A DNA stretch of 64,000 bases, taken from positions 744,001-808,000 of the forward strand of contig JAYWIR010000057.1 in NCBI GenBank assembly GCA_036172245.1, written 5' to 3'. This document shows positions 42,831 to 63,900 of the stretch, in pieces (the first letter of the stretch is position 1; each line of letters starts with the position of its first letter). A program made the translations under genes and the position numbers. Origin of the DNA: Raillietiella orientalis. Its lineage: Eukaryota. Below the pieces are notes generated by a model, which was not told the origin of the DNA, did no database searches, and saw only the letters and a list, made by a program, of their open reading frames with translations.

Positions 42831-44689
42831 AGCGGTCTTGCGTAGAAATGCACATCTTGAAGCGCACCGGAAGCACCGGAAGAGCGAAGGTTGGCTCATG
42901 CGCTTGCCTGTGGAAGTCGTTGCGGAACGGATGTGCATGGGAGCTCCTCCGTTATCATTCCAGAACCGAATTCGAGGTGAAGTGGATGATGGAAAGGTGA
43001 AGTGCGAGCGTAAGCTGCAGAGTGTAAGCTCCTGCAACTTTCGATTTGGAAACCGTGAAGAAATGTGGCTGCGGACAAAAGTTGTGGCTGAAGGTTGTGT
43101 GGATGCTGGAGTCGTAACGTGGCAAAGCATGGAAGCATTCGAATTGTTAATAGGGTGATGTTCGATGTCTGAAGAAAGGCGCGGTTAGCAGTGCTCAGTA
43201 GATGGCAAAGTAAACAGTTTTTTTTTTCTTTTGTAAGTTTCTGTGTGAATCTGGAAAGAAGGGAGTGCCGGAATTCTTGTGGTTTCCCTTAAAGTAATAT
43301 GGAATAAAGGAAGGAGTTAAAGCGAGCAGTCACATGGAATGTCGCTGTTTTGCAGTCATGGAAACGCAAGAAATTGGGAATTACCGAATTTGTGAAGTGC
43401 GTCTTGCGTTGGTTTCTCCTAGCACCTTTGCTGTGCCCTAGCACGTTTTGCCTTTCGTTTTGCTGGCTGATTCTTGAAAGAAGAGCCCTTGGATGGAAAA
43501 AGAAGAGGTGAGTCTTAAGGTTTTGATTCTTTTGATTAGATGGTTCAGTAAGACTTGGGCAGGTAATGGATTTCAGTAGGAGAGGTTGTGGAAATGCTAG
43601 AATTGTTTTTGCAGCACTGTGAAAGTATTGAGAGTTGCACGGTTTTTGCTCATCCCATGCTTTGTGACAGCAGGGTTCGCTGTGTTTATGAGATGTGCAG
43701 TACAGGGATGTGCATTTGGCCGAACTGCTTTGTAATGCACACTTATCCAGACACAGGGTTGGGTAACCATGCATGTTGCTTGGTGAAAGCGACATCTGGT
43801 GTTGCAGTGTCTCCAGGAAAGATTCATGTGAGATGACATCCTGTTTGATGTGAGGGCTGCTTGGACATGATACGGAAATGTCGGGTGCGCTTCTATTTCC
43901 TTTTGCGTGGAAAGCGCTCTTGAAAAGAGTATGCATTTAGAACAAGCCCCACAAAGTGCAAAGTTGGCAACGGTTAGGGAAATGGTGAGTGCTGTGGTTG
44001 TGCACTGTTCACTTGGAAGTTCACCTAAAGGTTATCTGTGTTTGCTGTCTTTTAAAGTTGCAGTTCCGAATCGGAATGGGTCAGGGTAATCAGTTCATAA
44101 TCAGTTCCCTGAGAAGAGATAAGGAAGTGTCTTGCTTCATTGCCTTAGATGATGTCTGGTGGCTGAGGGTGTCAAGTGGAAGGTGACGTGGATAATGACT
44201 GGTGTGTAGTGTAGTAGGAATTGTATCCAAGAACTGCTGGGAAAGGTGAATTACGTATTGAATGGTTTCTAGCATGGATGAGGGGATGTGCAAGTGTTGG
44301 CCTCGAGTACTTTACTCCAAATTCCACAATAATATAATAAATAATTTGAGTGGTGAGTTAACTGTCAGTGCCAGCTATGAAAATGTAACATTGATGAAGT
44401 ATATGTCTGGTCAGGATATACCTGATGATTTTGAGGCACATTGTCAGTCTGCAGTATGTCCAGACACAGGAGTTCTGAAAGCAGGAATGTTGGTGTACCA
44501 TGTGAAAAAGAAATATTTTTTGTTTAGAGGAAGCAGAGATGCAGCTAGGCAGGCTAATGCGACTTGGAGAGCTGCAGGTGCTGTGCTAATAAAAAGAAGT
44601 TGATTAATTTAGTTGTCTTTATTACTTTCTATTGGTTTGACATATAGGATAATGTTGCCATCATTCTCCATAATGAAGGAGGTTTCTTT

Positions 44690-45602
44690 CTGCTGGAGCT
44701 AGTTATATTGATGATCTTCGATCGATCAGTGCTTAGTTTGATGTAGTCTGGTTCCCAGTTGGCCGTAACTAGGACGTGTGGAGTGTCGAAGTATCTTATT
44801 GATATTTAGGATCAAAGATGATTTCGTTTTTCAAGCACTCAATGAAGCCGTATTGAATGGTTTTGTGGTTGTCTCTTGTAAAGTCAATGACTATTATGGG
44901 CTCTCCATTATGGGCTGCGTTGCTCTTGTTGCAACTTTCTAGATAAATTGCGTTACGTCTGAGAAAGAGATATTTTGTCAACGTAGGCTTGCCCCGTTTC
45001 CTCGTTCGTTCAGGATCCAGTATATTTCTCGGTGATGTGGTGGTTTGGAGAGTATATTCAGAACTTGGTGTTGCCACTGCCGTAACTGTAGAATCGCCAT
45101 TGGGTTCGGGAAGTGCTTCGCTCTGTAGAGGCCAAAGCACTCCTTGATGAACTGAATGTCCCTTGAATAAAATTTTGTATAATTTTCCAAGATAAAATTT
45201 TCTGATTTGTCGGATTGTATGAGGCGAAGTATCTGGACGAAAGAGATGTTACTAATGCGAGTGTATTGCTTTCTTACCCGGCGTTCGTAATTGTCGTTAG
45301 GGTTTTGGTCGAGTGTTGCATGAGTGCATATCTTTTTCACAATATTGAAGGTTAGCGTTGGCTAAACCTCTTGCGTGCTCCAAGTGAGAGCGCTTGAGCT
45401 GCGGTCTTCGCACTTGCGGCAGCATGAGAGGTTCATGCAATTGCATGCATCCTTGCTGGTGATGCGTATCGGTAGTGGTTGCTTTCTTCGCGATGATTGC
45501 GAAGGTTGCGTGTTGTTTGCACCACTGCTTGACGCGAGTGAGTTCATCTTCTGTCCAGTTGTGTATGGCGAAGCACCAGTTTGGGTAACGTGCGTAAAGC
45601 AT
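44690..45602 (-). pseudogene. rep: Endogenous CRESS-DNA virus Rep, copy 1 (HUH endonuclease plus SF3 helicase), frameshifted
   Basis: RCR motif I WCFAIHN, motif II HQQG, motif III YCEK. Walker A region EIYW..ERGNG/GKPTLTKYL, Walker B IIVIDFTR, then YGFIECLKN and motif C PHVLVTANWEPDYIKLSTDR, spread over several frames. Confidence 0.9.
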
Positions 45603-45668
45603 GCTTTTTGCGTACTACTGAAAAGCATGGTGTGCATGGTGAGTATTTATCAAATTTTCGGTGGCCAG

Positions 45669-45719: not shown

Positions 45720-47960
45720 GAGTAGAATTCACTCCTCTTGCATTCGAATTGCAGTCCCCATATAAGGTCATTGGTGTGTGGTGTTATGGTGGTTCACTTC
45801 AAGTCCAGGAAGCTTTCATTGGTAAAAGAATATGCTATTGATCCTTTGATGCTGTTTTCCTTACAGGCTATCCTGTAAGGAATTTGGTTTAGCAGGTTGC
45901 GCATCGAGTTATTTACTTGTAGATGGCCATGGGCCTGGGGTTTTCGTGACTTGCATGCTGCTGAACGTTGGGCAACTATGCATCAAGTGATCATACCATA
46001 GCAACTCCTCAGTTGAAGCAGCAATGTTGTGCAATGTGTAGGTTGTGGGAAATTTCGAGGGCTGCTGAAAGTGGAGTTCAGTTGTGCGCATCGTAGCTCG
46101 AATCTGAGCTTGTCGACACCCAAATACGTAGGTTGTTAATGGATCCCTTGATTCCTAGCTCCTGTGTTGAATGTGTAAGTGCAGAATCCACATTTTGCTA
46201 TTTTGAGCGTTGCGATGCTTTGCTAGAAAAGTGGAGGTGATTGATTGCCTTGGGCGCTGATTGAAATTCGTAGCCTTTGCTAACGTGAAGTGTCGGTCTT
46301 AGACGGTGAGAAGTGCACGTGCATTGTTAGTCACCGAAATGAATTTGTAGAGGTATAGGAATCGATGGCGGCTTTGGAAATATCTCGGCAACAAACATGC
46401 GTTGTATGGTGGTCGAATGCAGCACTTGAGGTTCCTGGAAATATCTGGTCGTAACACGATGAAGGCGGAAGAAAAGCGTTATGTTTGGTCGAACAATTCC
46501 AGTCTGCTTTGAAATAGGGGGTAGAATGAGTGCTTTTCGTTCGCCGGTTGGGATCTGGCTGGAAGGAATGTTGCCCAGTGGGGAAGCGTTCCGTAACATA
46601 AAATATGTGTTTAGTTTGTTACAGAATGCTGTGTTGGAATCTGCAAGTTAGAGCGGAGTGATTAAATACGGAAAATACGCAAAGGTGGGTAAAGAAGGTG
46701 TTATGTACTGCTTGAAGAAATCAGGAGTATATCTAGGAGCAAAGTTCTTTCATTGTTCATGTGATCAGCTCGATTCAGTTTTGGGCTGCGTCCTTTTGAG
46801 GGGAATAGGTACTAGAACAGCACATCGACAACTATCGTGAAGCCTGGTGCTTTGTGTGCTGTTATAATGTTTGCATATTTCCCTAGCTGCTTTCACCGCC
46901 CCACGTAGATTTCTCGTTTTCTGTTCTGATGAAATGAGGTTGTCTATAATACCTCGGAAAGCGGTGGACCAGGATGTGCGCACGCAGAGGACTGTTGATG
47001 AAAATTTCATAACTATTTTTGTTTAGATCTGACTATTTTTGTGGAGAGTTTCCAAAGAATCCTAAACGATACTGTGCTATTTAGAATATTGGTGAGAAGG
47101 AGCTTTGTGTCGTGGTATAGAGCATCGACCAAGCTGTGCTAGGTTTAAGGATTTTCGTGTCGTCATTCCAGAAACCTGGGTCGCTCATTGCCGCCGTTGG
47201 AATATTTGGATAGAATGCAATTTGCGAAAAAATATTTCGAGTCTGAAAAAGGAGTGAAATCGTGGCTGCGTAAAAAGATTTGGTGACAAGGTGTAGAGCT
47301 AAGCAATGTATCATTCATGGTTAGGTTTCTCACGTGGCAGTTCGAATGGCAAGTGAGAAAAAGAACAACTTATTGTAACGAAGGTGATAGATCGAGTGGA
47401 GCCTAAGCAAGGTTGTTCAGACGCTGAGTGACTTCTATGGATGCAGACCCAGGTTCGACAGGTCGCCTGTAATGTGTAGAGAAGTGGCAGAGGTGTTAGC
47501 CGCGAAGATAGGCAATAAACATATTTTGGATTGTAGATCTGCGCTGCATCCGGATGTAGCGTGCAGAATTGGGTATAGAATCTTGAGAAGCTTGTATGGT
47601 GAAACCGCAGCCACGATGTGTTGAGTTGGTGTGCTAATGATATCACAGTATCCTTATCTGTTAAAAGTATAGGCTCATTGTTTTTGTAACAGTGTTCGGT
47701 CGGATGGTAGGAGTATGTATGCAACTCCTCGGGTGGTAGTGGTTCGAACGATGGAAGGTGGTTCTCAGGCTGTTCGTCTAAAGTGTCCTCGATTTGACAC
47801 TGCTGGTGGCATGGAGGTGAAAGTGAATACTAGGGGTTTGAGTTATTTGGTGAGGCATGTTGCCGGCTTTACCGTCCCAAAGTCGTGGAGAGTTGATGAA
47901 TCAGTGGCTAAAGGGCTTCTGAAAACAAAAAGGCTAGACGATGGAGGGTTCATCGAAAGT
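45720..47960 (-). pseudogene. Heavily decayed coding relic, possibly a negative-strand RNA virus L (RdRp) segment
   Basis: A/C-rich minus strand like the flanking EVEs. Broken frames give weak hints of L features: FxSExL..FIN..DGK near 47900, LLPIF.(G)LTPLP near 47500, and KIVRS near 47030. Many stops and frameshifts. Confidence 0.3.
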
Positions 47961-48079
47961 TAAATTTTTTGTTTAAAGTAACTAGAAATTTTAATTGGCA
48001 ATAAAACTGTTTATGATCATTGGGATGGTAGGTCTAGTTTGTCGTCGGGAAGTCTTCCTTTGGTTTTCTTGTTTGTTTT

Positions 48080-48821: not shown

Positions 48822-50644
48822 ATCGAGCAATTACTGCCTCAGGTCACTTTCAATTAAACACCTGTCAGAGTAAAAGGCATTAGTATGAAGATTGTTATGA
48901 ACCCCAATTGGTTTCCCCTCTTATGACTGGTTTTAGGATAGATGATAGGAACCCGCTAGATGGATACTGCAAATAATGTTTTGTTGAAATAATGTTTTGG
49001 TGGATAGGAGCAATATGAACAGCTGTTTAGTCCACTGCTTGGTACTAGTAGTCAAACGTGAAACTTGATTATGAGTAAATGCCGTTGACTCAGCTGTGAG
49101 ATTGCAATCAACATCAACATTTTCTCCATCAGCATTACGAGTGTGCATAACACCATACAGAAACAGACTGTACAGTTCATGGAGGCACAGTAGTTCCATT
49201 TCATCTAAATGGTACTGGGTAAACGTTGCTTATGTAGCTGGACTGGCATCAACACTTATATGTCGCTTCAGGTACTACTCAATGGGTTTTTAGATAAGCA
49301 ATAGCTGTTCATAGATAGCAAGGCATGTGACTAAATTCAGTGTTCGTGAGAACCAACAAAAAACTGGAATAGTTTCCCATACTGGAAATTAAAAAAAGTA
49401 AACTTTGTTTGGATTATTTACAGGATTTTATTTTGCTTTTACGGGATGTAGAACTACATCTCTTTAATGTACAATATCAGCGGCTTGTACTTTTGATTCC
49501 AGATTTATAAAATAATTTGTTCTTATTGTGTTGAGTAATGAAGTGAACAATCCAAATGTCAGACGACATCTTGTAGTTCGGGTCTGTATTTGCGAATACC
49601 ATGAGATGAGGTGGATTATAAAGCTTTACGTGCCCTTGTTATTTTATAGAGCATATACCATTTTTTATGGTTCCAATAAGTCAATAGTTTACTGTTTCTT
49701 GCGTCGCCTTTAGTCAAGTCTATGATGATGTTTTTTACGATGTTCATGAAGGATGAGTCTGCTTTCTTGCAGTTAGGTAGATCGCATCGTAGTTTATGTA
49801 GATGTGTTTTACAATAATGGTTGTTCCGCTGTTTTCCTGGTAGTCAGCGTACCAATGCATATCACGGTGGTTTGGTTCTTTGCATCGATGTGAGCACAAG
49901 AATACGTTGATTCTGATAGTGTTCCATCGTGATGATACCCATTTCGACGAACAATTGAACCACTAACCTCTCATCGAACTGGAATAGGCTAGCCATGTTT
50001 TCTGGAGTATTCTTGTTAGGTCAATTATAGGTTTTGTACACTAATATCTTGTAGGTGTTGAGTCCTACAGGCTGCTCTGCTATTGGTTGGATGTTTCGAT
50101 GAACCAGAGAGGGAAAGGTGGTATTATAGGGTGAAATGGGGAACACTACTTAGGTCTTGTGTTAGACGTTTTTCAATTTAGCAAGTACACCAGGAGCTTT
50201 CGCGCAGCACTAAGGCGCTGTATCTGCACATTCTGATGCTCCCGCTTATGCAAGGATGCAGGCAATTCCTGTTTGCGACGCTAGCAGGAATTTGCTGCGC
50301 CGAAAGCATTTTCGGCGCAGCAAATGTAGTTAGAAGTTGGAGTTTGTTATGGAGAGGTTGAGCATGCCAATGATAACAGGTGCACGTTTCCGGGCTGCTG
50401 GTTATCTTGTATCGGGTTCTAAATTCCGTACGTTTCACAGAAGTAGATGATTTCATAAGTGACTGCCCCAGGACTGCTTGCTAAGCGACCTGTCAGATTC
50501 GTCTCCCTGTTTCGTAGTTCAGTAGCACAGTCTTCAGTCGGACAAGGTATGGATGTCAGGCCGCTAATGTCAGGGCAGTAGGTAAACCCTCTGCTGTGAC
50601 ATTAGGGGCTATAGCGTTGACAATGAATACAACCCGGGCCAGAT

Positions 50645-53600
50645 TATATAGGCTTTATTCATTTAGTAATACAAAGTTTCCTCTGTGAGAGGCATTGATA
50701 TTGTTAGTATGCTACCTGTAAGCATGCACTGAAATTGTCATGAAATAGCGGGAACCGCACTTAGGGTAATGAATGGAGTCTTTGTCGTATTTTCACTCTG
50801 ATGGGGCGCACCCAGGGATGGTTTCTGCCGTCGGGGTATCAGCGAGAAGGGTTGTGGCCTGGGGGCTTATGGGGATCGCGGAACTCACGTTCGTTTCATG
50901 CCTTTTGATATGCCGCGAATAAATGTCTCTGGAGTAGGGTTGAAGATCCTGGTCAGCAGGGAGCATTGCGGATCTGCCCGTTGCAGTGCATCATAGCATA
51001 TCCTGTCTTCACCTGGAGAAGTGTTTTCACAGGAGGCTAGGTTTTGTGCGACCTCTTCAGGGAGGAGAGGGGAGAGGTCCAGGGCGTCTGCAGGCGGGAG
51101 GGAAGGAGTAGTGGCAAGGAATTGCACATCGAAGCTCTTCACTGCGTGAATGTTTTGGAAGTGCTCACGAATTTCAGTTAAGGGCACCGTGCATCGCCCT
51201 TTGTTAATACCTAGAATTTCCCTAATCGCACGCCTACGATTCATCCTATACATGTTCTGTAGGCGCACGCGGCCGCTTCGTCTCGCTTGACTGTTATGCC
51301 TGGAGGGATTTTTGGCGGGATTAAGTGTACGGGTTCTTTGCACATGGATCCGCGAGCGGAATTCCTGCAAGACAAGCAGCGTCTTTTCCCAAGTATCGAG
51401 GTCAGGGGTAAGCTTTGCGATGTCTTCGAGTTCCCGTATTAAATCGAAGTTCGGGATAATCGTTCCTTCAGGTTCAAGAAAGCCTTTTGTCGTTGGGTGT
51501 AGTATCTGTACTTTCGACCTGCCTTTCGGGCGTCGCGACTCACGTTTTCCCTGATCGAGGTTTTCATGTCTCGCACCTAAGGCTCTTCCAACAGGGGCCC
51601 TATCGGGCTGAGGGGGCCCATCAGCCATGGGGGATAACAGCATGTCGGGGGAGTGGCCCGTGTTGGAATCCTCAACAAGTGGGGAAAAAGTATTTCTTGT
51701 GGGGATTGGGAGGGGGGAGGCATGATGACGTCGGTACGCTCTCCCGACTTTTTCATGCCATCTTAAATGGTTCTGAAGGCCCTTCTCATTGGGGAAGGAA
51801 AGGGAGCAATGCTGTAGGGAGCAGGGATACCGTGACGCTTCGGGAGGTGGCAGCCTAGGGGTTTTGCGCCTGCAACGATGCAGGTGCGTCGGTAAGCTCA
51901 CAGTGAGCTTACATTTCCTACAAACCAGTTCATGTCTCGGCACGTGCATTCGGTGCACGCGAGAGAGATGACGTTTGAGAGATTGTAGGGTACGGCTGGC
52001 ATATGCAGTCAATGACTGCCAGGGGCAACCTGTCACGCAGCATCGCATATGACGGGGCATAGGAAACATGATCCGCAATACATGTTCCTCCGTCAGCACA
52101 AGCTCAGGGCTTCTAGGTTCGAGAGATAGCGATAGCAGTGGGGAAATCGTAGCCTTTTTGGGAAGTCTGGACGTTGCAGGCATACTGGACGTTGGACCGT
52201 GCGCAGAGTAGCGAGGTTGCTCAATACTGTATCACGGTCGGGAGTAAGTCTGGCTCTTTTTGCGACTTCGCGTACATAGGATAGTGAAACGGGGGGTGAT
52301 GGTCGCGATGGCACATATATGCCAAGCTCCGAGATGCAGCCCGCTGAAAGCGCAGGCGAACATAGGAGCTCTGTCGTTCTGGAGGCGGGGAGAGTTCGAT
52401 TAGGGATTGAACTGCAATTGGATTGCTTCGGGGAGTTAGCAGTTCGAGTTTCGCCGCGCACAGCACATTTCAGTTCCTCGGGGACAGCTTGAACAGCTTC
52501 ACCCAGTGCTTCATGTACTTCTATTGCTCGCGCAAGTATAGCAAGGTCTGTCTGGGATGGGGATGCAATAGTAGGTACGGAGCCGTTCGATGTATTCGGA
52601 GAAGGCGGAAGTGACGAGAGGGTGGGATTGCTGGAGGCAAAATCCCCTTTCGCCGTAGGGCTGGCGTTCTCTTCAGCTGGGTGAGCATCTTCAGACGTCA
52701 GCCTCGAATGCACCGATTCGTCACCTCCGTCCGTGTAATCAGACGACAGATTGTTCTTATCCTTGTGGATGATGCGAATGTGCCTGTCCAAGAGTTCCAA
52801 TCGGGAGAAGCTGTTTGGGCACACGCGGCACTTGTGTTCTAGCACATGGATTGCGGGGGGCAAGCATGTAGCCCTTTCCTTGCATACATGTACCATTGGC
52901 GAGGGGTTAGGGATAACAGAGTGGCAAGCGGAGCAGAGAACAACGACTTCAGTTACATTAATGCCATGGGTACGGCCGATATGTCTTTTGATACTACGGA
53001 GGCGATCTGATTGTGTCGGGGCGACCGAGCATCCTTGGCATCCATTAATCGGGCATATAAGAGGCCGAGGGGTAAGGGGACAGCACCAAAGGCGAGTTTC
53101 GGAATCCAAGAAACAGGCAGTGGTGGAAGTCGAGCAAGCCATGGAGAAGGAGTTTTCTTTCAGAGTAAAACCAACAAATAGTTATCGGAGTAAATAGGGG
53201 GAAAAAGGGTTAACCCGAGAGTTAATTGGGGGCTAATTTGGGGAAAAGGGAACAGTAAGGCTGAAGACCGGGAAGCGAGCGGCGCAAAAGGGGTCATGTA
53301 CAGTTATTGCCACAGGGACGTACGCGTGTATCAGGATTCGCATGGGAGAAGACGAGTTCGCTTAAATCTCCACCATAGCACATGTACCGATTGGTTTGCA
53401 TTCCAAAGGATGTGTACACTCACCTTGATACACTAAAGCTCTTCTAGTAATACTATTCACGAGCAGTAGTGACCAGGCGTCTTGAACAGCATTCATTAAA
53501 GGAGCAATAACAGTTGGGGAGGGATTAGGGACACAGATAGTGTAACCGGATACCCTTCGGCCATCACGTCCAGGACATCTGGGATCGTAGTCCGGGGTCA

Positions 53601-53822
53601 TAGTCCAGAGACAATCACTCACAAAACACAACTTTACATGATTTTCGCAAAAAATATTTATTTCAATATCACAATATAAAACATAAGAACATCGAGAAAA
53701 GCTAAATACACACAATTCACTAATCCACACTCATCAAAAGCGACAAAAGGGTAGCAGGCAATTAGCCCTTTCCCCTTGAATCAACGCGAGAGCTACGTCG
53801 AGGCACGTCCGTCCTACTCGAG
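50645..53822 (-). mobile_element. Utopia-type (NeSL/R2-group, U2-targeting) non-LTR retrotransposon, internally deleted
   Basis: Begins exactly after U2 GTGTAGT. ORFs 52093-53142 and 50885-52183 carry multiple zinc fingers and the pre-RT motifs RLQNMYRMNRRRAIREILG and NTSPGEDRICY. The sequence then jumps near 50940 to a C-terminal YSRDIYSRHI motif, a 3' UTR and AATAAA (50654-50659). Confidence 0.88.
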
Positions 53823-53860
53823 ACTACACTTTGATCTTAGCCAAAAGGCCGAGAAGCGAT
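53823..53860 (-). ncRNA. U2: 5' 38 nt of a U2 snRNA gene, interrupted or truncated
   Basis: Reverse complement reads ATCGCTTCTCGGCCTTTTGGCTAAGATCAAAGTGTAGT, the conserved U2 5' end including the branch-point recognition GTAGT. The expected continuation ATCTGTTCTT is replaced by retrotransposon sequence. Confidence 0.95.
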
Positions 53861-53970: not shown

Positions 53971-54916
53971 TCAGTTCTTCTTGGAAAGAGATTTACTGGA
54001 TATGTTATTGATAATCCGTCTGTCCGTTGACATTTTGTTGTAGTCTGGTTCCCAATTATCGAAAACCAGTATGTGTGGTGGCTGAAAGTATTTAATGGAA
54101 CCTTGAGACTTGCCGTCGATGATGATACCGTTCTTTAGGCTTTCTATGAATCCATACTGCACATGTTCCTGGTTGTCCCGGGTGAAGTCAGTGACGAGAA
54201 TTCTCCGTTGTAGATATACCGCATCGGCCTTCCTGCAGGAAGGCATGTAGATGGCCTTTTTTTTAAGGAAGAGAAATTTGGCCATCCTTCTCTTCTCGGC
54301 GTTACCAACTGGGTCGTAAAACCAATATATTTTTCTCTCGTGAGGTTGATGTATAATGTCTAAGATTTTAAGTTGCCATTCTTTGAGCTGAAGATTAGCG
54401 AGTGGGTTGGGATGTGTTCTGCTGCGGGATAATCGGAAACATTCTTTTGTAAAGTTGATGTTCTTTGCGTAAAACTTCGTATGGTGCTTGAGAATGAACT
54501 GTTCGCCTGCGCCATTTTCGATGAGTTGTAGGATCTGAAAAGAAAATGACCTTGAAATAGTCAACTACGCAGTTTGCTTACTTCTTCTTCATAAGTTTTT
54601 GCTTCTGCATCTTCGTTCAGATCTCCGTAAACCCATGCTTCTTTGTCCTGCTTGGTGCAGTACTTCAAGTTGCTCTGAGGTGAACCTTTTGCCTTTTCCA
54701 GGTGACACTTGTGAAAAGGCTTTCGGTGCAAACCAGGCATTCTCCTCGGTTCCTTCAATTTAAAGTAGCCCTGTAGTGCGGTGTACCGGTATCTGCCGTT
54801 TCTCTGCCAATACAGGCAAAGTGGCAGTTGCATCTGCACATTGTTTGATAGCTCTGAAGTTTTCGGAGTAGTTATACAATGTAAGGCACCAATTGAAAAA
54901 AAAATGCATGAGGCAT
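53971..54916 (-). pseudogene. rep: Endogenous CRESS-DNA virus Rep, copy 2, frameshifted
   Basis: Motif I WCLTLYN, motif II LQGY, then HLEKAKGS and motif III YCTK. Helicase part IYWFYDPVGN, LVTDFTRD, YGFIESLKNG, PPHILVFDNWEPDYNKMSTDR. Clearly homologous to copy 1. Confidence 0.92.
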
Positions 54917-54963
54917 GTTGGTAATTCACTAATGGTGTGACTGTGGATCGGATGTTTGGTGGT

Positions 54964-55089
54964 TTATATACTAACACAGACCCAAATTATGAAAAGATGT
55001 CTTCAGACAGATGGATTGTGCATTTCATTAATGAATCAAAAAGAACAAGCAAATATCCAATAAGTAGTATGTGTTCTTCAGGACGTTAA
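54964..55089 (+). pseudogene. rep: C-terminal fragment of a third CRESS Rep, in opposite orientation
   Basis: Plus frame reads LYTNTDPNYEKMSSDRWIVHFINESK...GR-stop. It aligns to the motif C / arginine-finger end of Rep copies 1 and 2 (FDNWEPDYNKMSTDR). Too short for the ORF track. Confidence 0.8.
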
Positions 55090-55475
55090 TATCTTATATC
55101 CCTAAGTCCTTTGAATTGCCAATACAATTTTCTCCAAATTCTAAAAATTGGAGCATTTTTTTGAATAACATTATTTTCCAGGATATCATTCTGTTGAGCC
55201 CATTCAGCTGGAAACTTGAATCCCACTACATGCTTCGCTATTATAGAATGACCAATCAACACATAAGAGCTCATTTCAGTTTGCTTTTCAGTACTAAACC
55301 AAGGACATTTAGGTCGATAATATATCACAGAATCACCCTTAGATGTCACCACAGACTGCTTCTCAACACAACTTCTACAATACACAGACACATCTCTTTC
55401 TTTAAATTTATAAAAAAAGGAAGTCCTTTTGCTCTGATGCCAAGCTAAATTCTTCATGCATTCACTATACTTCAT
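55086..55475 (-). CDS. 129-aa open frame resembling the fusion domain of a rhabdovirus-type (class III) glycoprotein; fragment
   Basis: The spacing of C, C, P-x-C-x-W, H and W residues (SECMKNLAW...YC...YRPKCPWFST...GHSI...RIW) parallels VSV-type G as I recall it (TTCDFRWY...QC...PPQSCGY...PHHV...TTW). No signal peptide or TM segment. Alignment by eye only. Confidence 0.45.
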   Translation of the reverse strand: MKYSECMKNLAWHQSKRTSFFYKFKERDVSVYCRSCVEKQSVVTSKGDSVIYYRPKCPWFSTEKQTEMSSYVLIGHSIIAKHVVGFKFPAEWAQQNDILENNVIQKNAPIFRIWRKLYWQFKGLRDIRY

Positions 55476-55506
55476 ATCAACAAATTTAACTGCGTAGTTA
55501 GGCTGA

Positions 55507-55538
55507 GCGCAATCTGGTCAGTGTTACCCAGATTGCGC
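55507..55538 (+). promoter_or_regulatory. Rolling-circle replication origin stem-loop of CRESS type
   Basis: Perfect 11-bp stem GCGCAATCTGG / CCAGATTGCGC around a 10-nt loop TCAGTGTTAC, which contains the NAGTRTTAC-type nonanucleotide CAGTGTTAC. Flanking inverted repeat TAACTGCG (55487-55494) / CGCAGTTA (55536-55543). Lies about 420 nt from Rep sequence. Confidence 0.8.
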
Positions 55539-55559
55539 AGTTATCTGACCCTCTATTCA

Positions 55560-56810
55560 TCTCGTCCTGCATCACATCTTGGAGTGACCAAGGTTGAAAT
55601 TGACGCAGGGAGAGAAGATCTTCGGGACTGATTCCCTAAAATGCAGCCGAAGACTCAACAGATTCTAGCCGCCAATCATTAAAATTTAATGGGCGGCAGG
55701 AAATCCACGAATTGGCTTCCATCATTGAGGCTAGTTGCCTCAAAGGATGGGCAAAATCGTTTTGTGGCGCATGCCCGGCACCAAGGAAAGAAGTCCGTCA
55801 TTGCCGAGACCTCCATAGAAGGATGCGCGAAGGCACATAGAGCAGCGAAGTCGAAAGCTTGGAACAGTGTCAGCATCCTGAACTGCACTTGCATTCTGAT
55901 CCGCGCCATCGTCAGGATTCCAGAGGTGGCATCCCGAGGTTGAGCCATCAGGTCTTTCAGGCGGATCCTAGGCGTTTAGCCCGTTCTTTGGCGGCGTAGG
56001 GGGAGTACAAAAGAAAAAACAGGGTTCAGAGGACGGGGGCCACGAAGATGTTACAAATAGCCGCATGTTCCGGCAAGATAAACTAGCCATTAATTAAGGG
56101 GCTAGAGGCCAGCACTGCCTTATGAAGGCAGTCCGACCACGCCTCTTCGGCGCCGAAGTCGCCCAGTGGAACGCCAAGATAAGTTGGCGGCTTTTTTCCC
56201 GCTTTTACCGGCGAGCCGACGGTAAGCAGCACTGCTGGCTGGAGATCACGGTCGCCACCGTCCTCCATGGTGCTGCACGAATTCGAGTGCTCGTCTCCGG
56301 GTAGCGTCGTTTGACGCCCCGGGGTGAGCTTTCGCACCTTCGCGGTCTGCGCTGCGCGCCTCAGGGCCTTAGCCCGGCGCGCTACGGCTACCGCGCTGGT
56401 GATCCGACGTGCGGCGATCTCAGACTCCGTTTCAGAGTGTGATTGAAGCGCGGGAGCTTCGCTTCTCACCTATCGTGTCGATTCGGAGGTGCTCGCGGAT
56501 GGAATCCCGACACTTCCTTTTTCGCGATCACCGGAACATCGTTCCTGACGATCGCAGCTTTCGCGCTATGCGCAACTGCGGTGGTAGCCTTGGCATCGGC
56601 ATAGGGAACCTTCGCGCGAGTCTTCATCGCGCTACTGTTTCTTACATTGGAGAGGCTCTTGCAGTTAGGTTGCGGAGAATTTTTGGGAGATTTTGTTTTT
56701 CTCCCTTTCTACACAACCTTCCACCCTCCGTCCGTTCCCTCGGAGCGCTCCTCGACTTTCGTGAGCAACGCTACCGGGCTTTCCTCCCCAACCGCCTGGG
56801 GAAAAAAATA
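55560..56810 (-). mobile_element. Decayed, internally deleted copy of the same LINE family
   Basis: TYLGVPLGDF..WSDCLHKA and RDATSGILTMARIRMQVQFRMLTL match copies A and B. The upstream GC-rich part looks like 5'/ORF1 sequence. Confidence 0.75.
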
Positions 56811-56981: not shown

Positions 56982-58020
56982 TTACCGCATGGGTTCAGCT
57001 GCAGGCAGTATTTTTTCATGTTGCCTTAGCCTGACCGCCCTTGGAAATCTATGCTCAAAGTTACGTATGGCTTCGTGCAACTTGGTCCTGATGTCTGCTA
57101 CACGGTCAGTACCCAGTTGTGGCGTAATCATTTCAATGGGTCTGAACGACAACTCCTTCGGAAATTTCGTGCAGAAGGCTTCCCATTCAGGCGAGAAATC
57201 CTCCTTTGACTCAACAGCCTGTTGCGACATATGGAGCGATCAACAGAGTGTGGACTTAGGGTGTATATTAAGCATGAATGACCCAAGCCTTACCAACGTA
57301 GCATCTGCATCGTAGTCGTTGAAGTTGGTGCGGGCTTGACCGATGAGATATCTAGCTCCTATATGATAATACTTAGCGTTTGGCATAGTACTCGCATAGC
57401 ACACGCCCATGAACACCATATTCTCAGGACAGTTTGCAGCTTGCGCCCAATTGACCAGACGTTTGAATGCCTGGTACGCCACTGCATGCCGATGAGTTCC
57501 AGCAGGTGGGGACAGGAATCGAAGCAGAGCATCCTGGGATATAGTCACGGGTTTAAATGAGGGTCCTTGGACTGTGAAAGGCACTGATTCAATCATATGG
57601 GCAAATCCTGCCAGCTCCAGCACACGAAGAGTACTGCAAAAGTGACCTAATGTATGGGCCACATCCATCCCCTTCTTTTAAGATCTTTATCTTGCAAACA
57701 AAGAGCGCCAGACTTTTAGAGGATACCCTGCACCTCTAGTGTTATCTTCCCGGATACCGGTGTGATGATTAGTCAGCGACCATGACACTTTTGTAGCTAT
57801 AACTAGGACCATGCAATTCGTCGCTAGTTGCTGATTCAGGGCAGCTTGGCTGGCTGTTCGTTGGGCTGGTGTCAAATCATGCCGTTGAGGAGTTGGTCGC
57901 CAGTCTCCATCCGGTATTAATACACCATTAATGGACCTATACCGAATCATATCATAGGTTAGCAGAGCATATATGCCGTTGATCATCAGCGTCAATTGCG
58001 CATCTTTGTATTGCTTGGTG
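56982..58020 (-). pseudogene. Endogenous negative-strand RNA virus nucleoprotein-like gene, copy 2 (qinvirus-like), 5'-truncated at a LINE 3' end
   Basis: Three consecutive ORFs (57687-58031, 57240-57668, 56982-57230) contain KDAQLTLMINGIYALLTYDMIRY, ATKVSWSLTNHHTG, AHTLGHFCSTLRVL, LRFLSPPAGTHRHAV and YHIGARYL. Confidence 0.68.
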
Positions 58021-58021
58021 C

Positions 58022-60922
58022 TGTTTATCACCCGGGTGCGCCGGGGCGTTTATTACAAAACTATCCGGGAACAGAGTTCCCGAACAAGGAATACAGAAAA
58101 GACGAAGGAGGGGGGTCCCCGACACGCAGGTCGGTATACAGAAAGTCCGGAACTGGAGGGAGGGAACCACAAATACACAGATAAAAAACAGAAATAAAGA
58201 TATGGGGAAGGTAGGGACAGGGTACTTTGGTACGGCCGTTCCTTCCTTTCAGAACCGCCGATGGATGCCGGCGATCTCTCTCCTCACGCCCTCTGGTAGA
58301 TGGGCCCACTCGGCAGCCGACGACATGCTCGCGCTGGCTAATCCGGTGGGCTGACGAAGAATGGCAAGCTTCTCCAACTCTCGGTGGGCCTTGTCGATGG
58401 CGTGGGTGCAACAGACCGTTGCGATGACAGCACCTAACGACAGGCCGCCTGGCATGAAGAAGCGGCTCATCAAGTCTCTCGCGGTGTCCCCCTGGTGCAG
58501 GAGAGCGGAGGACAGCCTCCGCCACAGTCCTAGGAGGGCACCGCAGTCCAGGATCAGGTGCGGGAACGTTTCCACTTCCCCGCACTGCTTACAGTTTGGG
58601 GAGACAACTCCCCCGGAGACACGGTTCGTCCGCTGGCTGGAGTGAAAACCCCAATGCACCAGCATGATGACGTCATGCTTCCATGAAAGGGGTAACAGAA
58701 GTGTTCAAACAGGAGGGAGGGACCACAAGTTCTTCGGGGGCACACTCAAGTGTTCACTCCACCGAAGGAGTCCCTTCGGGATGTGGCCAGGCGTGGCGGA
58801 GTCTGCTAGCTCGCAAGTCCTCCAGCCGCCAATGTGTCGTGTTGTTCCTGCGATAGTGCGGGCGACCTCCCATCTCGCCGGTTCGCAGCTGTCATCTCTT
58901 GCCCTGAGGGCTGACAGCATGTCGGCGAGGGGCGTGACGGCCAGGCGAGTCCACTTCTGGCTGTTGCACACCTCATCCACCGTGCAGTACGGGGAGAGGT
59001 GAACCTAACGGAGTTCCAGGAGGGAAACATCTTGGTGCTTTGCCCAGCCATGCAACGGTTCCTGCCACCAAACTTCAAAGTTCGTTGGGCGACAGGGAAT
59101 CCATTCCTGGGCTGCCGGGAGCCGGTAGAGGGTTTTCAACGGGAAACCGTCGCTCCTCGTGGCGCGCTCCGTATGCGGCCGCAGCGACAGAAGTTCATCG
59201 CTGCCGGTGCAGCGCCGCAGGAGCAGACGCGCAGGAGCGAACCACGGGGTGGACCAAAGGTTGGCGCACAGGGTCAACATCCGAAACTGCACCTGCAGCT
59301 CCATTCTCTCCAGCGTCAGGATACCTAAGTTTGCATCCCGACGCGGAGCCGCGAAGTCTTTGAGGCGGATCCTGGACCTCGCAGGTCCCCACAGAGCGTT
59401 CCTCAACAGGCTGTGCGCCTGGAGCTTGGCCGAGTAGGGGGCCGGGCAAACAAAAAGCAGGGGTCGCAAGAGGGGGGCAACGAAGGTGTTAAATATCGCG
59501 GCCCGCTCCGACAGGAGGAACCTGCTATCGTGAAACGGGCTCAGAGCACTCGTAGCCTTCCGAAGGCAGTCCGACCACTTCCACTGAGCTGATGTTCTCC
59601 AGCAGAACGCCCAGATACTGGATGCAGGAAGCGGTCCGGATCCCCAGGCGGATCCAGTCGGACTGCCCCTCTCACGCCGCACCAATACGAACGACCACGC
59701 TCTTGCTCCGGTTTACGCTCATACCCGCTCCCCTGCGAATCAGCTCGAAGAAATTATCGAGACTGGACGCCGGGGTGGTCATGGGTAAAAGGAGAAGCAG
59801 GTCGTCGGCATAGACCGCCACGGCCGGAGTTCCCGGACAGGAGCTCGGCAGGTTGGCCAGAGTCAGCCTGTACGCCCTCAGCACCAACTCAAAGAAGATG
59901 CTGAAGAGCAGGGCGCTTAAGCTGTCTCCCTGCCTGATACCCCGCCCTATGGGAACGCCGTACACGTGGCGCCCGCTGAAAGAGATATAGCATAGCGCGT
60001 GGCGCCTGCAGGAGCGCAAGTAGGCGATGAGGTGCGTCGGGTGACCTAGGCGTTCCAGAATCTCCAGAAGGAGATCCTGGTTTACGCTGTCGAGCACTTT
60101 GCAGAGATCGACGGCGACCGTTAAGGCACCCGGCGTTCCATCGTGCCCTGAACACCGCCGCTTACCTTTGGCAGTGGCGATTTCGGCTGCCTGGCTCTGC
60201 TGCGCCACGCGCTGCTGCAACTCGAACCATGTTCGCGCGAGGAAGAGATTCGCGTCCATGCACCGCCCCGTCTGCTCCGGACTTACCAAGGACTCCGCGA
60301 TTCTCCCCAGCCGCGCGACCCATAGCTTCGAGAAGAACTTGACGTCCGAAGTCACTAAGGTGATCGGACGCCAGTTGCTGAGGTGGCGGAAATCCCAGCC
60401 TTTCGGCAGGAGCCGCACCTTTGCTTAGCGGAAAGAAGCGGCAACATATCCCGTCTCCCGCATCAGCGAGGAAAGACTCAGCACCAGGGGGACGAGCTCC
60501 GACGCGAAGCACTGAAAGAACTCCGCGGGCAGGCCATACGTGCACAGCTGGCCAACGAGATGTGCGCTGCCATGAACGCGCGCAACTTGTTGGCCGGTGA
60601 CGCCGGGAAAAATACGAGGATCGACCACATGTTCCTCGACAACCACCTGTGTTCGTGGGTGGGAAATCGAGGCGCAGTGCCATTCGAACTTGCCGACCAT
60701 CCCCGGCTTGTGCTAGAGATACACCCGCGCGGTAGAGGTACACCCTCCACAGCGTGTCGTTTGCCAGGGGACTGGTTGCGCCTCGCAAGAGCAGCGCAAC
60801 ATCTTCGCTCGTTCCTGCAAGGCTTCCATCTGCAGTTGCTCGCGGACTGGGACGACTTCAAGAGCTCAGTCCGCGAGTTCTGCGACCAGTTTCCCCTAAA
60901 CCGTCTCCCTCCAGGTTTCGGT
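58022..60922 (-). mobile_element. L1/Tx1-like LINE, copy B, with an inverted 5' segment (about 60540-60922) encoding the end of the APE domain
   Basis: Minus-strand RT: NWRPITLV, GIRQGDSLSALLF, VYADDL, CKQCGEVETFPHLILDC. Plus-strand TRIDHMFLD...ADH is the AP-endonuclease C-terminus. Confidence 0.9.
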
Positions 60923-60924
60923 GT

Positions 60925-63900
60925 TGCCACCCGTGTACGCCCGGGGCGTTTATTGAAAACTACAAAAACATTAAACTAGGCCCCACTAACGGCCGCACAG
61001 CACCGAACCTGGCGGAACGCCGGGACGGAGCCCGGCATGACGCTCCTCGGCAGTGGAGGGGGATGGGGAATAAAACAAAAATAAAAATAAAGATATAGAA
61101 AACCAAAAAGAGTTTGGAGGGAGGGGAAGGGATCATTGTCCACTAGGAGGAGGGCCCATCCTTCGCAGGATGCCCTCCAGGTCCATCTTCATGCTTCCCA
61201 GATGGGGCCATCTCGCAGCTCTCCGCATGAAGCAGACCGCATACGGGATGACTACCCTCTCGTTGGCATCCACTGCGTCGCGAATGTCGCTCCACGCCGA
61301 CACGATGCCTCGGATGCAGCAGAGGTCCCCGAGGGCTGCGGCGGGCTGCAGGGCGTCCCGCACGAAGAGGGGCCGAAGAACGTCTCTGGGCGTGCTGCCC
61401 ATTGGGAGCCCGAGTGTCGTCCCGAACCGTTCCCTCAGGGTTCGGAAAGCAGCACAGTCAACTAGTAGGTGGGAGAGCGATTCCCGCTCCCCACACCTGG
61501 CCCACTCAGGGCTTACACTTCCTCGCGTGCAGTGGAAGCGGCGCGCGTTGCAGGGTATACCCCAGTGCAACAGCAGCAGCGCCGTCTCTTGCCACTTTAG
61601 AGGGAGAAAACTGGATCCGATGAGAATTGGGGGCCACTTGAGGTCATCCGTCGGGATGCCGAGCAGCTCGCCCCATCTCAGAAGTCCACGTGGGAGGGCA
61701 CTAGGGGTCGTGGCGTCTGCCAGTTCTCCCATGGTCCAGCCGCTCATCTTTTTTCCCTTCCTGCGATTCAGCAGGAGACTTGCCACTTTGGCGTCCGGCC
61801 GCTGGTTAAGGCCCTCCGTAGGAAGGGCAGCGTCGAAGCCAAAGGGGTGGTCTCCGCCCACGTGCTCCTGGCGGGACACTCCAGAGTAGTCCGTAGGGTG
61901 CAGCAGGCGTTGGGGACGAGTCGCAGGCGGTTCCATTCACGTCCAGTCTGAAGGTTCAGCTTGGCACACGTGCCAACGGATTCCTCCAGCCAGGCGGAGG
62001 AGTTGGCGGGGCTGCATACCGTCGAGCCGTTCTCTCTCACCAGGGATTCCATGCGCCCAAGGTGAAGGCCGCATTTTCTGAACTTCCGGCCGTGGCACAG
62101 AAGGTATGACGCGAGTCCTTGCGTCCTGGATACACGGCTGGCGAGGATGCGGGCTGGAAAGCACCAAGAGGTGCTTCATGTATTTGCTGCGATGGCGAGG
62201 GTGCGCCATTGCAGCTGTATGTGCAGGCGTTCCAGCGTCAAAGGGCCGAGACCGCCGTCCCGACGTGGAGCGCATAAGTCCTTTAGAGGCACACGTGGCC
62301 TCCCCATGCCCCAGAGGGCGATGCGGAGAAGGGCTTTCGTCCTCTTTTTCAACTCAGGGGAGACGGGGCACACAAAAAGCAGGGGGCGGAGGATGGTAGC
62401 CGCGAACGCGTTCCACACTGCGGCCCTTTCCGGCAGAAAGAACTTGCCTTCTAGGAACGGTCCGATTTCCAACTCTACCTTTTGGAGACGACCTGACCTG
62501 GCTTCTGCGAGGCAGAAGTCCCCCAACGGAACACCCAGGTACTTCAGGTACCTGGCCGTGGGAATCCCCATGCGGATCCAGTCAGGCCGTCGAGCCTACG
62601 TCGCACCCACCGGTACCACCGACGACTTCGCCTTGTTAACCTGCAATCCAGTCCCACGGCTTAGCAGATCGTAGAAATCCTCGACTGCGGTTGCCGGGGA
62701 GGACATGGGCAACATCAGCAGAAGATCGTCGGCGTATGCAGCTACTGCGGGCGTGCCAAGGCACCAGCTTGGTAAGGCAGCCAAAGTCACCCTGTACGCT
62801 CTCAGCACCAACTCAAAGTAGGTGCTGAAGAGCTGGGGACTGAGGCTATCGCCCTGCCGTATGCCCCGCCGCACCGGCATGCCGTACACCTGTTGGCTGG
62901 AAAAGCAGATGTTAACAATGGCGTGGCGCCAGTAGGAGCGCAGGAAGGAGAGAAGGGAGGGTGGGAAGCCCATGCGACCCAGGAGCTCCAACAGTAGCTC
63001 CTGGTCAACGCAGTCGAACGCCTTATGGAGATCGACCGCGATCGCTAGGGCCCCCTTCCCAGCCCGGGTGTCCATTCCCAGCCCAGCTGGCGGCCCCAAA
63101 GTGGGGTTGCCAATCTTTCCGCCAGTGTCGTTTAGGCAGCGCTGCACATGGAACCATGTGCTCGCGAAGAACAGGTTGGCATCCATACTTCTCCCGGGAA
63201 CAGCGTATGTCTGCTCCGGGCTAATTATGGAGTCTGCCACCTGTCCTAGACGCGAAGCCCACAGTCCAGCGACCAGCTTGGCGTCCGTATTCACAATTGT
63301 GATCGGACGCCAGTTGCCTAGGGATCTCAGGTCTCCTCCCTTCGGGAGGAGCCTCACACGGGCTGACCGAAACGAGGCGGGAACGTCGCCTTCGTCTCGG
63401 ATCAGCGCGGTCAACTGGAGCACCAGGGGGGCCAGCTCTGCTGCGAAGCATTGAAAAAATTCCGCAGGCAGGCCGTCCTTCCCTGGAGCCTTACGCCTCT
63501 TGAGCCTTTTAATACCGGCGAGAATTTCACCGGTAGAAAAAGGCTCGTTGAGGCTGTTCCTGTCCTCCTCCCCTATTGCCGGGGCTCCGTCCGGAAGCAG
63601 GAGCCGCGATGCGTCTCGCTCTGGGGGTGCCCTAGCGTAGAGGGAGGAATAGTAATGCCGCACGAGGCGCCTGATCGCGGGTGGGCCCGATCGCTCCCGG
63701 CCTTGGTCGTCCAGCAAGCTGGTCGACCCGGATTGCCAGGCTTGGCGCTGGGCTCCGGCTCGATATTCGGCCAGGCGACGGACATTGGGGGTCCTCTCGT
63801 ACCGGCGGGCCTGTAAATAGGCCGTTTGGTTCCGAACCCCCTCCCCAAATCCGGGGGGCAGGCGGTGCAGGGGAACTCCTCGCAGAACTCGCGGACCGAG

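What the first reader, a model, noticed from the sequence alone, without database searches (positions are those of the whole stretch)
54961..55543. CRESS origin, Rep tail and an RNA-virus glycoprotein-like ORF arranged like one ambisense ssDNA replicon
Seen: a perfect 11-bp hairpin with a CAGTGTTAC loop. An uninterrupted 129-aa ORF starts 32 nt from it on the minus strand. A plus-strand Rep C-terminus converges on that ORF, and the two TAA stops overlap in a single TTAA (55086-55089). Known: convergent Rep and capsid genes with the origin in the 5' intergenic region is the standard circovirus-like layout. Inference: the slot normally held by a capsid contains a Cys/Trp/His pattern like the fusion domain of rhabdovirus G. 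This could be a rolling-circle replicon that captured a negative-strand RNA virus gene piece. Alternative: independent EVE scraps were joined here, and the origin belongs to Rep copy 2.
Basis: partly seen in the sequence, partly recalled or inferred. Interest (0 to 1): 0.86.

Follow-up and report, generated by a model that had tools for sequence, protein, structure and literature searches.

The report
Fossil fragment of a small circular-DNA virus
This is most likely a dead, roughly 620-base piece of a small circovirus-like DNA virus stuck in an animal-type genome, keeping the virus's replication-origin hairpin and one complete gene of unknown function, and nothing supports the idea that this gene came from an RNA-virus glycoprotein.

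Summary
The described sequence features are all present. There is a perfect 11-bp hairpin with CAGTGTTAC in its loop. A 129-codon minus-strand ORF starts 31 nt from it. A plus-strand Rep C-terminal tail of 54 codons converges on that ORF, and the two stops overlap in TTAA at 55086-55089.

The layout fits a fragment (about 54925-55545) of an ambisense circovirus-like genome. It lies in a cluster of four Rep-derived pieces between 44.6 and 55.5 kb of a retrotransposon-rich eukaryotic window. It is not a working replicon: only the last 54 Rep codons are attached, and the neighbouring Rep copy has degenerate catalytic motifs.

The rhabdovirus-G reading has no support. ORF129 gave no Pfam hit, no solved glycoprotein match and no real relative among 1.84 billion protein representatives.

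New here: ORF129 has a diverged, frameshifted homologue 7 kb away (47673-48004). There may be a decayed third copy beside another Rep stop, but the evidence for it is weak. ORF129 is therefore one of a small family that sits with the Rep fossils, most likely the virus's own non-Rep gene. Whether it is a capsid is untested, because the fold searches never ran.

I rate it a new member of a known kind, of moderate to low interest.

The parts
54925..55089 (+). C-terminal tail of a Rep gene: 54 open codons plus stop TAA at 55087-55089, cut off at its 5' side
   Evidence: In-window tblastn: 49% over 41 aa to the copy B tail, E 7e-9; 45% over 22 aa to the copy 1 tail, E 0.001. Stop-anchored comparison ranks the copy B stop first among 4584 anchors at L of 25 or more. 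No Pfam hit of its own.
55086..55475 (-). ORF129: intact 129-codon ORF in the position a capsid gene holds in circovirus-like genomes; no relatives outside this window
   Evidence: pI 9.64; 22 K+R against 11 D+E; 9 K+R in the first 40 residues.
55086..55089 (.). TTAA in which the Rep stop (plus strand) and the ORF129 stop (minus strand) overlap
   Evidence: ORF coordinates; sequence.
55507..55538 (+). Origin-like hairpin: perfect 11-bp stem, 10-nt loop 55518-55527, nonamer CAGTGTTAC at 55519-55527 on the Rep-tail strand
   Evidence: CAGTGTTAC is reported as the origin nonamer of a cyclovirus in PMC12197738 (passage read).
55491..55543 (+). Two copies of TGCG[T/C]AGTTA (55491-55500 and 55534-55543) on either side of the hairpin; possible Rep-binding iterons
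   Evidence: These are the only 2 matches in the window, and 0 of 100 shuffles reach 2. The pattern was chosen after seeing the sequence.
55068..55448 (+). 126-codon frame open on the strand opposite ORF129, with the same codon boundaries
   Evidence: The frame stays open in 78 of 20000 synonymous resamplings of ORF129. Its composition is I/S/F/L-rich with 1 D, 1 G and 1 V. No Pfam hit.
53971..54977 (-). Rep copy 1: near full-length Rep-derived sequence in two frames joined by a 47-nt GT..AG intron-like stretch (54535-54581); abuts the Rep tail head-on at 54909-54930
   Evidence: PF02407 Viral_Rep E 6.8e-6, 26.7 bits. Translation; intron coordinates; same site in copy A.
47673..48004 (+). Copy C: diverged, frameshifted homologue of ORF129 (frames 47673-47960 and 47912-48001, stop 48002-48004)
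   Evidence: Frameshift-aware alignment scores 93 for ORF129 aa 42-129; 0 of 150 shuffled queries reach it (maximum 53). Whole-window scan: 93 against a background of 46 or less. Reciprocal scan: ORF129 is the best non-self hit, 71.
49209..49467 (+). Candidate third, decayed ORF129-like relic, convergent on the Rep copy B stop with 9 nt between the stops
   Evidence: Stop-anchored rank 1-3 of about 4585 at L 15-41. Local score only 42-46: 29 of 1000 and 5 of 150 shuffles reach it, and it is at background level. Not found with copy C as query.
49480..49878 (-). Rep copy B: helicase-end fragment with many stops
   Evidence: tblastn 30% over 123 aa to copy 1, E 3e-14.
44632..45614 (-). Rep copy A: frameshifted Rep with a recognisable endonuclease domain and a 45-nt GT..AG stretch at 45233-45277
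   Evidence: PF02407 E 2.8e-8, 34.3 bits, profile positions 3-81 of 82. tblastn 48-63% to copy 1, E 2.8e-46..
55645..56217 (-). Right flank: fragment like the reverse-transcriptase-bearing retrotransposon copies; places the right edge of the viral piece between 55545 and 55645
   Evidence: tblastx and blastn to 59041-59655 and 62191-62541. RVT_1 ORFs at 59672-60424 and 62596-63999. GC rises from 0.33-0.38 to 0.49-0.56.

Best explanation
The stretch from about 54925 to 55545 is an endogenous viral element. It is a fragment of roughly 620 bp from a small ambisense, circovirus-like circular ssDNA (CRESS) virus, fixed in a retrotransposon-rich eukaryotic chromosome.

It keeps three adjoining parts of the circle:
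- the last 54 codons of rep;
- the whole complementary-strand gene (ORF129);
- the 5' intergenic region with the origin hairpin.

In the living virus, Rep would have bound the repeats beside the hairpin, nicked the loop nonamer and started rolling-circle replication. That step is inferred from circovirus biology and is not shown here. ORF129 would have been the virus's second gene, transcribed away from the origin and ending tail to tail with rep.

In the chromosome the piece is inert. It has no rep of its own, there is only one origin copy in the window, and the adjacent Rep copy 1 comes from a different virus and has degenerate catalytic motifs.

ORF129 is not an RNA-virus glycoprotein piece. 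It belongs to a small family of unknown fold whose other copy or copies lie among the same Rep fossils.
For: The layout is compact in the way viral genomes are: the stops overlap in TTAA, and 31 nt separate the ATG from a perfect 11-bp hairpin carrying CAGTGTTAC. CAGTGTTAC is a published cyclovirus origin nonamer (PMC12197738, passage).

The nonamer is on the same strand as the Rep tail and the origin lies at the 5' end of the opposing ORF. From recall, this is the circovirus-type arrangement.

The tail is Rep by a chain of homology. The tail matches the copy B tail (E 7e-9). Copy B matches the copy 1 C-terminus (E 3e-14). Copy 1 and copy A carry PF02407 N-terminal domains (26.7 and 34.3 bits against a cut-off of 26).

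GC is uniformly low (0.33-0.38) across tail, ORF and hairpin, against 0.45 to the left and 0.49-0.56 to the right.

The ORF is longer than chance: 7 of 20000 shuffles reach it.

ORF129 has a true homologue, copy C (score 93, 0 of 150 shuffles, reciprocal best). All Rep-like and ORF129-like pieces lie within 44.6-55.5 kb of the 64-kb window.

The peptide ending at the plus-strand stop 9 nt from the Rep copy B stop ranks 1-3 of about 4585 stop-anchored peptides against the ORF129 C-terminus. Ten anchors made up the set expected beforehand.

CRESS viruses are known to pair related Reps with unrelated Cap genes, some averaging about 180 aa. Rep and Cap have also been found close together as endogenous elements (PMC7493932, passages).
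Against: Copy C is not beside a Rep tail or a hairpin. It abuts a truncated copy of an unrelated unknown protein. So the one well-supported second family member does not share the linkage.

The candidate beside copy B is weak. Its local score is at background level and copy C used as query does not find it. The anchored test was designed after the alignment had been seen.

No exogenous virus, viral contig or metagenome contig with a relative of ORF129, of the tail or of Rep copy 1 was found. The viral origin of ORF129 therefore rests on position alone.

The region is clearly a mosaic: the tail meets Rep copy 1 head-on, although the two tails are only 35-45% identical.

At 129 aa, and without an arginine-rich N-terminus, ORF129 is unlike typical CRESS capsids.
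Confidence: 0.72

Rival explanations
1. Chance mosaic. ORF129 is a host, transposon or unrelated viral sequence that rearrangement placed between a Rep scrap and an orphan origin hairpin, so the circovirus-like layout is accidental.
For: The tail is joined head-on to a different Rep. The right flank is a 3'-cut retrotransposon fragment. Copy C lies without a Rep tail or hairpin, next to a truncated unknown protein. No external virus carries an ORF129 relative.
Against: Two independent junctions would both have to land precisely: stops overlapping by 2 nt, and an ATG 31 nt from the stem. Base composition is uniform across all three parts and differs from both flanks. ORF129 is intact, while true scraps in the window (copies A, B and C) carry stops and frameshifts.
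Confidence: 0.15
2. Co-opted gene. ORF129 was kept by the host for a function of its own, which is why it alone stays open.
For: It is an intact 129-codon frame in DNA of 35% GC (7 of 20000 shuffles), whereas copy C and the Rep copies have decayed.
Against: The non-functional 54-codon Rep tail and the perfect hairpin are equally intact. That points to a young insertion rather than to selection on one part. No RNA run could be listed and no orthologue is available, so expression and constraint are untested.
Confidence: 0.08
3. One reading: a rolling-circle replicon that captured a piece of a negative-strand RNA virus glycoprotein gene.
For: ORF129 has 4 Cys, 5 Trp and 3 His.
Against: 0 Pfam families at E up to 1, so no rhabdovirus glycoprotein model either. 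None of the 5 PDB sequence matches at E up to 10 is a glycoprotein. No relative among 1.84 billion representatives. No complete Rep is attached and the window holds one origin only.
Confidence: 0.02

Closest known systems
Endogenous circovirus-like / CRESS-DNA viral elements in eukaryotic genomes
   Same: These are Rep-derived fragments with PF02407 domains, several per region, decayed to different degrees and mixed with retrotransposons. Rep and Cap lying close together as endogenous elements has been described (PMC7493932, passages).
   Different: This piece keeps a perfect origin hairpin and an intact complete non-Rep ORF but only the last 54 codons of rep. The non-Rep ORF has no known relatives.
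Circoviridae genome plan (Circovirus and Cyclovirus)
   Same: Ambisense, with rep and the second gene ending tail to tail, and a stem-loop with an NAGTATTAC-like nonamer between their 5' ends. The nonamer CAGTGTTAC and short Rep introns (31 and 71 nt) are reported for cycloviruses (PMC12197738). Here the Rep copies carry 45- and 47-nt GT..AG stretches.
   Different: The second gene is 129 aa with no match to any capsid model. The inferred circle of about 1.45-1.55 kb would be smaller than the 1.7-2.1 kb that I recall for the family. The Rep sequences are too diverged for family assignment: the word-indexed protein search and IMG/VR gave no hits.
Naryaviridae/Nenyaviridae-type swapping of capsid modules
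   Same: Related Reps are combined with Cap genes of unrelated ancestry, including small ones averaging 179-180 aa (PMC7493932). This shows that an unrecognisable gene in the capsid position is normal for CRESS viruses.
   Different: No sequence relation to those viruses was tested or found, and ORF129 is shorter still.
PSV ORF131-like zinc-ribbon domain (PF22415, PDB 2X5C)
   Same: Copy C residues 29-84 match the profile at E 1.7e-4, and 2x5c_A at E 0.11, around a KCPR motif. 2X5C is described as a zinc ribbon in PMC5906684 (passage).
   Different: The score of 21.9 bits is below the 27-bit cut-off. ORF129 itself does not hit, and the profile of ORF129 plus copy C does not recover 2x5c. ORF129 lacks the second Cys of that knuckle.

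Membership tests
CRESS-DNA virus origin of replication | Stable stem-loop | tested here: met
   Perfect 11-bp stem, -13.1 kcal/mol, z -4.43, 0 of 200 shuffles fold as well.
CRESS-DNA virus origin of replication | NANTATTAC-like nonanucleotide in the loop | tested here: met
   CAGTGTTAC at 55519-55527 within the 10-nt loop. The same nonamer is published for a cyclovirus (PMC12197738).
CRESS-DNA virus origin of replication | Lies in the intergenic region at the 5' end of a major ORF, next to rep | tested here: inconclusive
   It lies 31 nt from the ORF129 start. The rep 5' end that should follow it is absent: no Rep-like sequence lies to the right of 55545.
CRESS-DNA virus origin of replication | Repeated Rep-binding motifs (iterons) beside the stem | tested here: inconclusive
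   TGCG[T/C]AGTTA occurs twice, only here. The pattern was picked after the fact, and there is one copy on each side of the stem rather than a tandem array.
CRESS-DNA virus origin of replication | Nicked and rejoined by the cognate Rep | not testable with these tools
   Needs a biochemical assay, and no cognate Rep is present in the window.
Circovirus-like Rep (HUH endonuclease plus SF3 helicase) | Viral_Rep endonuclease domain (PF02407) | tested here: not met
   This applies to the tail itself, which holds only the last 54 codons. The domain is present in copy 1 (26.7 bits) and copy A (34.3 bits), to which the tail is linked by homology of their C-termini.
Circovirus-like Rep (HUH endonuclease plus SF3 helicase) | Intact catalytic and Walker motifs (a working enzyme) | tested here: not met
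   The copy 1 translation reads YTALQGY where copy A has HHQQG, and DPVGNAEKRR at the P-loop place. Motif names and positions are from recall. The C-terminal half has no Pfam helicase hit.
CRESS capsid protein | Match to a known capsid family | tested here: not met
   0 Pfam families at E up to 1. No relatives in any search.
CRESS capsid protein | Arginine-rich N-terminus | tested here: not met
   9 K+R in the first 40 residues, with no arginine run. The whole protein is basic, pI 9.64.
CRESS capsid protein | Jelly-roll fold | tested here: inconclusive
   The single-sequence AlphaFold2 model has mean pLDDT 44.6. The alignment-based job and all fold searches never ran.
Rhabdovirus G / class III fusion proteins | Sequence match to glycoprotein family models or solved structures | tested here: not met
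   No Pfam family at E up to 1. No glycoprotein among the 5 PDB matches at E up to 10.
PSV ORF131-like zinc ribbon (PF22415) | Score above the curated cut-off | tested here: not met
   Copy C scores 21.9 against 27 bits. ORF129 has no hit. Profile A4 does not find 2x5c.

The most novel reading that the evidence does not exclude
ORF129 and copy C are the only traces so far of a new family: the second (structural or accessory) gene of an unsampled lineage of miniature ambisense CRESS viruses with a spliced rep. The circle would be only about 1.45-1.55 kb. I infer that size from about 965 nt for the intron-containing rep of copy 1, 390 nt for ORF129, and about 120-180 nt of intergenic sequence. 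This lineage repeatedly invaded this host's germ line. The codon-aligned open frame opposite ORF129 could then be a genuine overlapping gene.
Probability: 0.25. Interest if true: 0.55.

Novelty: new member of a known kind. Interest (0 to 1): 0.33.

Why it matters
Endogenous CRESS elements are usually Rep scraps. A piece that keeps an undamaged origin hairpin together with a complete non-Rep gene records the genome plan of a virus that no database holds. It also gives a host link for that lineage.

If ORF129 proves to be a capsid or accessory protein of a new fold, it would add a module to the known repertoire of CRESS viruses and would suggest an unusually small ambisense genome.

As it stands, the main practical result is negative: the DNA-RNA virus chimera reading should be dropped.

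Tried and rejected
**Whole genome and reads**
- Whole-genome search: no genome is held for this window.
- Sequencing runs: none was listed and no RNA holder was listed. The junctions, circular forms and expression therefore could not be checked, and read laying was not used.
- Earlier findings of the scan: nothing by place or by sequence.

**ORF129 searches**
- Pfam: 0 families.
- Word-indexed protein search: no candidate.
- Exhaustive phmmer against 1.84 billion representatives: 1 hit, P0001. It is a 1600-aa translated tandem repeat matched in 18 stretches, and I rejected it as spurious.
- ESM Atlas: best score 0.88, no family.
- PDB sequence search: 5 hits at E 0.14-1.5, none relevant.
- IMG/VR and metagenome contigs: pattern matches occurred but none was confirmed. 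The same held for profile A4 and for copy C.
- An exact 26-nt hairpin core was not found in IMG/VR.

**Rep searches**
- The copy 1 C-terminal half gave nothing in the word-indexed search at either length setting, in PDB or in IMG/VR. The tail gave nothing in IMG/VR.
- Alignment A2 was too poorly conserved to be searched.

**Structure**
- The single-sequence AlphaFold2 model has pLDDT 44.6, too poor to interpret.

**Other origin candidates**
- AGTATTAC at 53447 is not in a hairpin.
- The hairpins near copies A and B have 4-nt loops without a nonamer.
- There is no hairpin or similarity upstream of copy C.

**Other leads**
- Rep tail beside copy C: rejected by the anchored test.
- PSV ORF131 zinc-ribbon lead: kept only as a weak lead.
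- Unknown protein X: no Pfam, PDB or IMG/VR match. The Atlas lead to Sacchrp_dh_C scored 0.92 with 154 shared features, below the level the tool gives for true family members.
- A bacterial promoter/terminator scan was uninformative.

Full report
**1. The observation**

- The arms 55507-55517 and 55528-55538 form a perfect 11-bp stem around the loop TCAGTGTTAC.
- As single-stranded DNA the hairpin folds at -13.1 kcal/mol, z -4.43, and 0 of 200 shuffles fold as well.
- The exact nonamer occurs once in the window.
- ORF129 runs from 55475 to 55086 on the minus strand. Stop to stop it is 143 codons, a length reached by 7 of 20000 shuffles of this 35%-GC region.
- 31 nt separate its ATG from the stem.
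- A plus-strand frame is open from 54925 and stops at 55087-55089. That stop and the ORF129 stop share TTAA at 55086-55089.

**2. The Rep tail is really Rep**

The window holds four Rep-derived pieces (in-window tblastn).
- Copy A (44632-45614, minus strand) is frameshifted. Its N-terminus hits PF02407 Viral_Rep at 34.3 bits, E 2.8e-8.
- Copy B (49480-49878, minus strand) has many stops.
- Copy 1 (53971-54977, minus strand) hits PF02407 at 26.7 bits, E 6.8e-6.
- The tail (54925-55089, plus strand) is 49% identical over 41 aa to the end of copy B (E 7e-9) and 35-45% identical to the end of copy 1.

The stops of the tail and of copy B align. In a stop-anchored comparison they are each other's best match among 4584 anchors at L of 25 or more.

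The tail and copy 1 meet head-on at 54909-54930. They are too different to come from one virus, so that junction is a join of separate fossils.

Copy 1 is no working enzyme. Its translation reads YTALQGY where copy A has HHQQG, and DPVGNAEKRR at the P-loop place (the motif names are recalled).

**3. What ORF129 is not**

It has no Pfam family at E up to 1 and no candidate in the word-indexed search. Among 1.84 billion representatives it has a single hit, which is a translated tandem repeat. The ESM Atlas gave nothing, and no solved glycoprotein appears among its 5 weak PDB matches. Viral and metagenome contigs gave no confirmed relative.

The rhabdovirus-G idea therefore has no support from sequence. 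The fold-level test could not be done. The only model has pLDDT 44.6, and all later structure jobs were never sent.

**4. What ORF129 is: a member of a small family that sits with the Rep fossils**

A frameshift-aware alignment found copy C on the plus strand at 47673-48004.
- ORF129 residues 42-129 align with score 93, against a maximum of 53 in 150 shuffled queries.
- In a scan of both strands of the whole window the next best score is 46.
- With copy C as query, ORF129 is the best non-self hit at 71.
- Shared motifs include R.KCP.F.T and HV.GF..P..W.
- Copy C has one frameshift and upstream stops.

A possible third relic lies at 49209-49467 on the plus strand. Its stop is 9 nt from the stop of Rep copy B on the other strand, which is the same convergent layout.
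- For it: the 41 residues before that stop are the best non-self match to the ORF129 C-terminus among 4583 stop-anchored peptides. The rank stays 1-3 for L of 15-41, and 10 anchors formed the set expected beforehand.
- Against it: its local score is only 42-46 (29 of 1000 and 5 of 150 shuffles reach it), which is at background level, and copy C does not find it.

I count it as suggestive only.

**5. Linkage**

In favour of one viral unit (tail, ORF129, hairpin):
- the two exact junctions, namely the 2-nt stop overlap and the 31-nt leader;
- the nonamer lying on the rep strand, with the origin at the 5' end of the opposing gene;
- the 10-nt repeat TGCG[T/C]AGTTA, found only on the two sides of the hairpin (the pattern was chosen after seeing the sequence);
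- uniformly low GC of 0.33-0.38, against 0.45 on the left and 0.49-0.56 on the right;
- all three parts being undamaged.

Against it:
- copy C has neither a Rep tail nor a hairpin;
- copy C abuts a truncated copy of an unknown protein X (48083-48737, minus strand), whose second copy is at 57240-58049 (62-75% identity);
- the right flank from 55645 is a retrotransposon fragment.

The neighbourhood is clearly a mosaic.

**6. Mechanism**

Shown:
- the anatomy;
- the Rep ancestry of the tail;
- the existence of an ORF129 family;
- the absence of a complete rep attached to this origin.

Inferred from circovirus biology (recalled):
- In the ancestral virus, Rep bound beside the stem and cut the nonamer to start rolling-circle replication.
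- ORF129 was the second gene.
- In the chromosome the piece cannot replicate, because it has no rep and only one origin.

Whether ORF129 is a capsid is open. It is basic (pI 9.64) but short, has no arginine-rich N-terminus and matches no capsid model. CRESS viruses do carry unrelated, sometimes small, Cap modules behind related Reps (PMC7493932, passages).

A weak lead ties copy C to the zinc-ribbon protein PSV ORF131: PF22415 at 21.9 against a 27-bit cut-off, and 2x5c_A at E 0.11 (PMC5906684 passage). ORF129 and the two-sequence profile do not reproduce it.

**7. Comparison and novelty**

The closest known things are:
- endogenous circovirus-like elements;
- the Circoviridae genome plan.

The nonamer CAGTGTTAC and short Rep introns are reported for cycloviruses from a tapeworm (PMC12197738, passage).

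Here copy 1 and copy A carry GTAAG...CAG stretches of 47 and 45 nt at the same site (54535-54581 and 45233-45277). In copy 1 this stretch separates the two reading frames, and removing it puts them in one frame.

I file the finding as a new member of a known kind: a CRESS fossil that is unusually informative but inert. Literature searches were used for context only. I do not claim that such elements are unreported.

**8. Limits**

No genome, reads or orthologues were available. Copy number, age, expression, circular forms and selection are therefore all untested, and everything about linkage rests on one 64-kb window.

Noticed in passing
window 54535-54581 (-) and 45233-45277 (-): Two diverged Rep fossils (48-63% aa identity) carry GTAAG...CAG stretches of 47 and 45 nt at the same codon position. 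In copy 1 this stretch separates the two reading frames. This looks like a conserved short intron of the ancestral viral rep, carried in by DNA-level integration.
   Followed up: partly
window 55068-55448 (+): A 126-codon frame is open exactly opposite ORF129, with the same codon boundaries. Given the ORF129 protein, this occurs in 78 of 20000 synonymous resamplings. Its composition looks non-protein-like, so it is either chance or an overlapping gene.
   Followed up: partly
window 57240-58049 (-) and 48083-48737 (-): There are two copies of an unknown protein-coding sequence X: 62-75% aa identity by tblastx but no blastn match. X has no Pfam, PDB or IMG/VR relative, only a weak Atlas lead to Sacchrp_dh_C. 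One copy starts right after the 3' end of a retrotransposon copy. The other is truncated about 80 nt from copy C.
   Followed up: partly
window 53746-53860 (-): A U2 snRNA-like fragment (RF00004, 39 bits, below the gathering score of 46, E 6.5e-5) lies about 110 nt downstream of the Rep copy 1 stop.
   Followed up: no
window 13893-14711 (+): An open frame with Formyl_trans_N (E 3e-15) and Formyl_trans_C (E 7e-5) domains: a host exon or a processed pseudogene.
   Followed up: no
window 58022-59023 and 23230-24238: A 1-kb inverted pair, 92% identical, of the 3' part of a reverse-transcriptase-bearing retrotransposon. Further RVT_1 ORFs lie at 59672-60424 and 62596-63999, and C2H2-bearing ORFs at 50885-53181.
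   Followed up: no
window 50290-50325 and 24680-24720: Perfect 16-bp and 19-bp hairpins with 3-4-nt loops and no nonamer. The first lies about 400 nt upstream of Rep copy B.
   Followed up: partly
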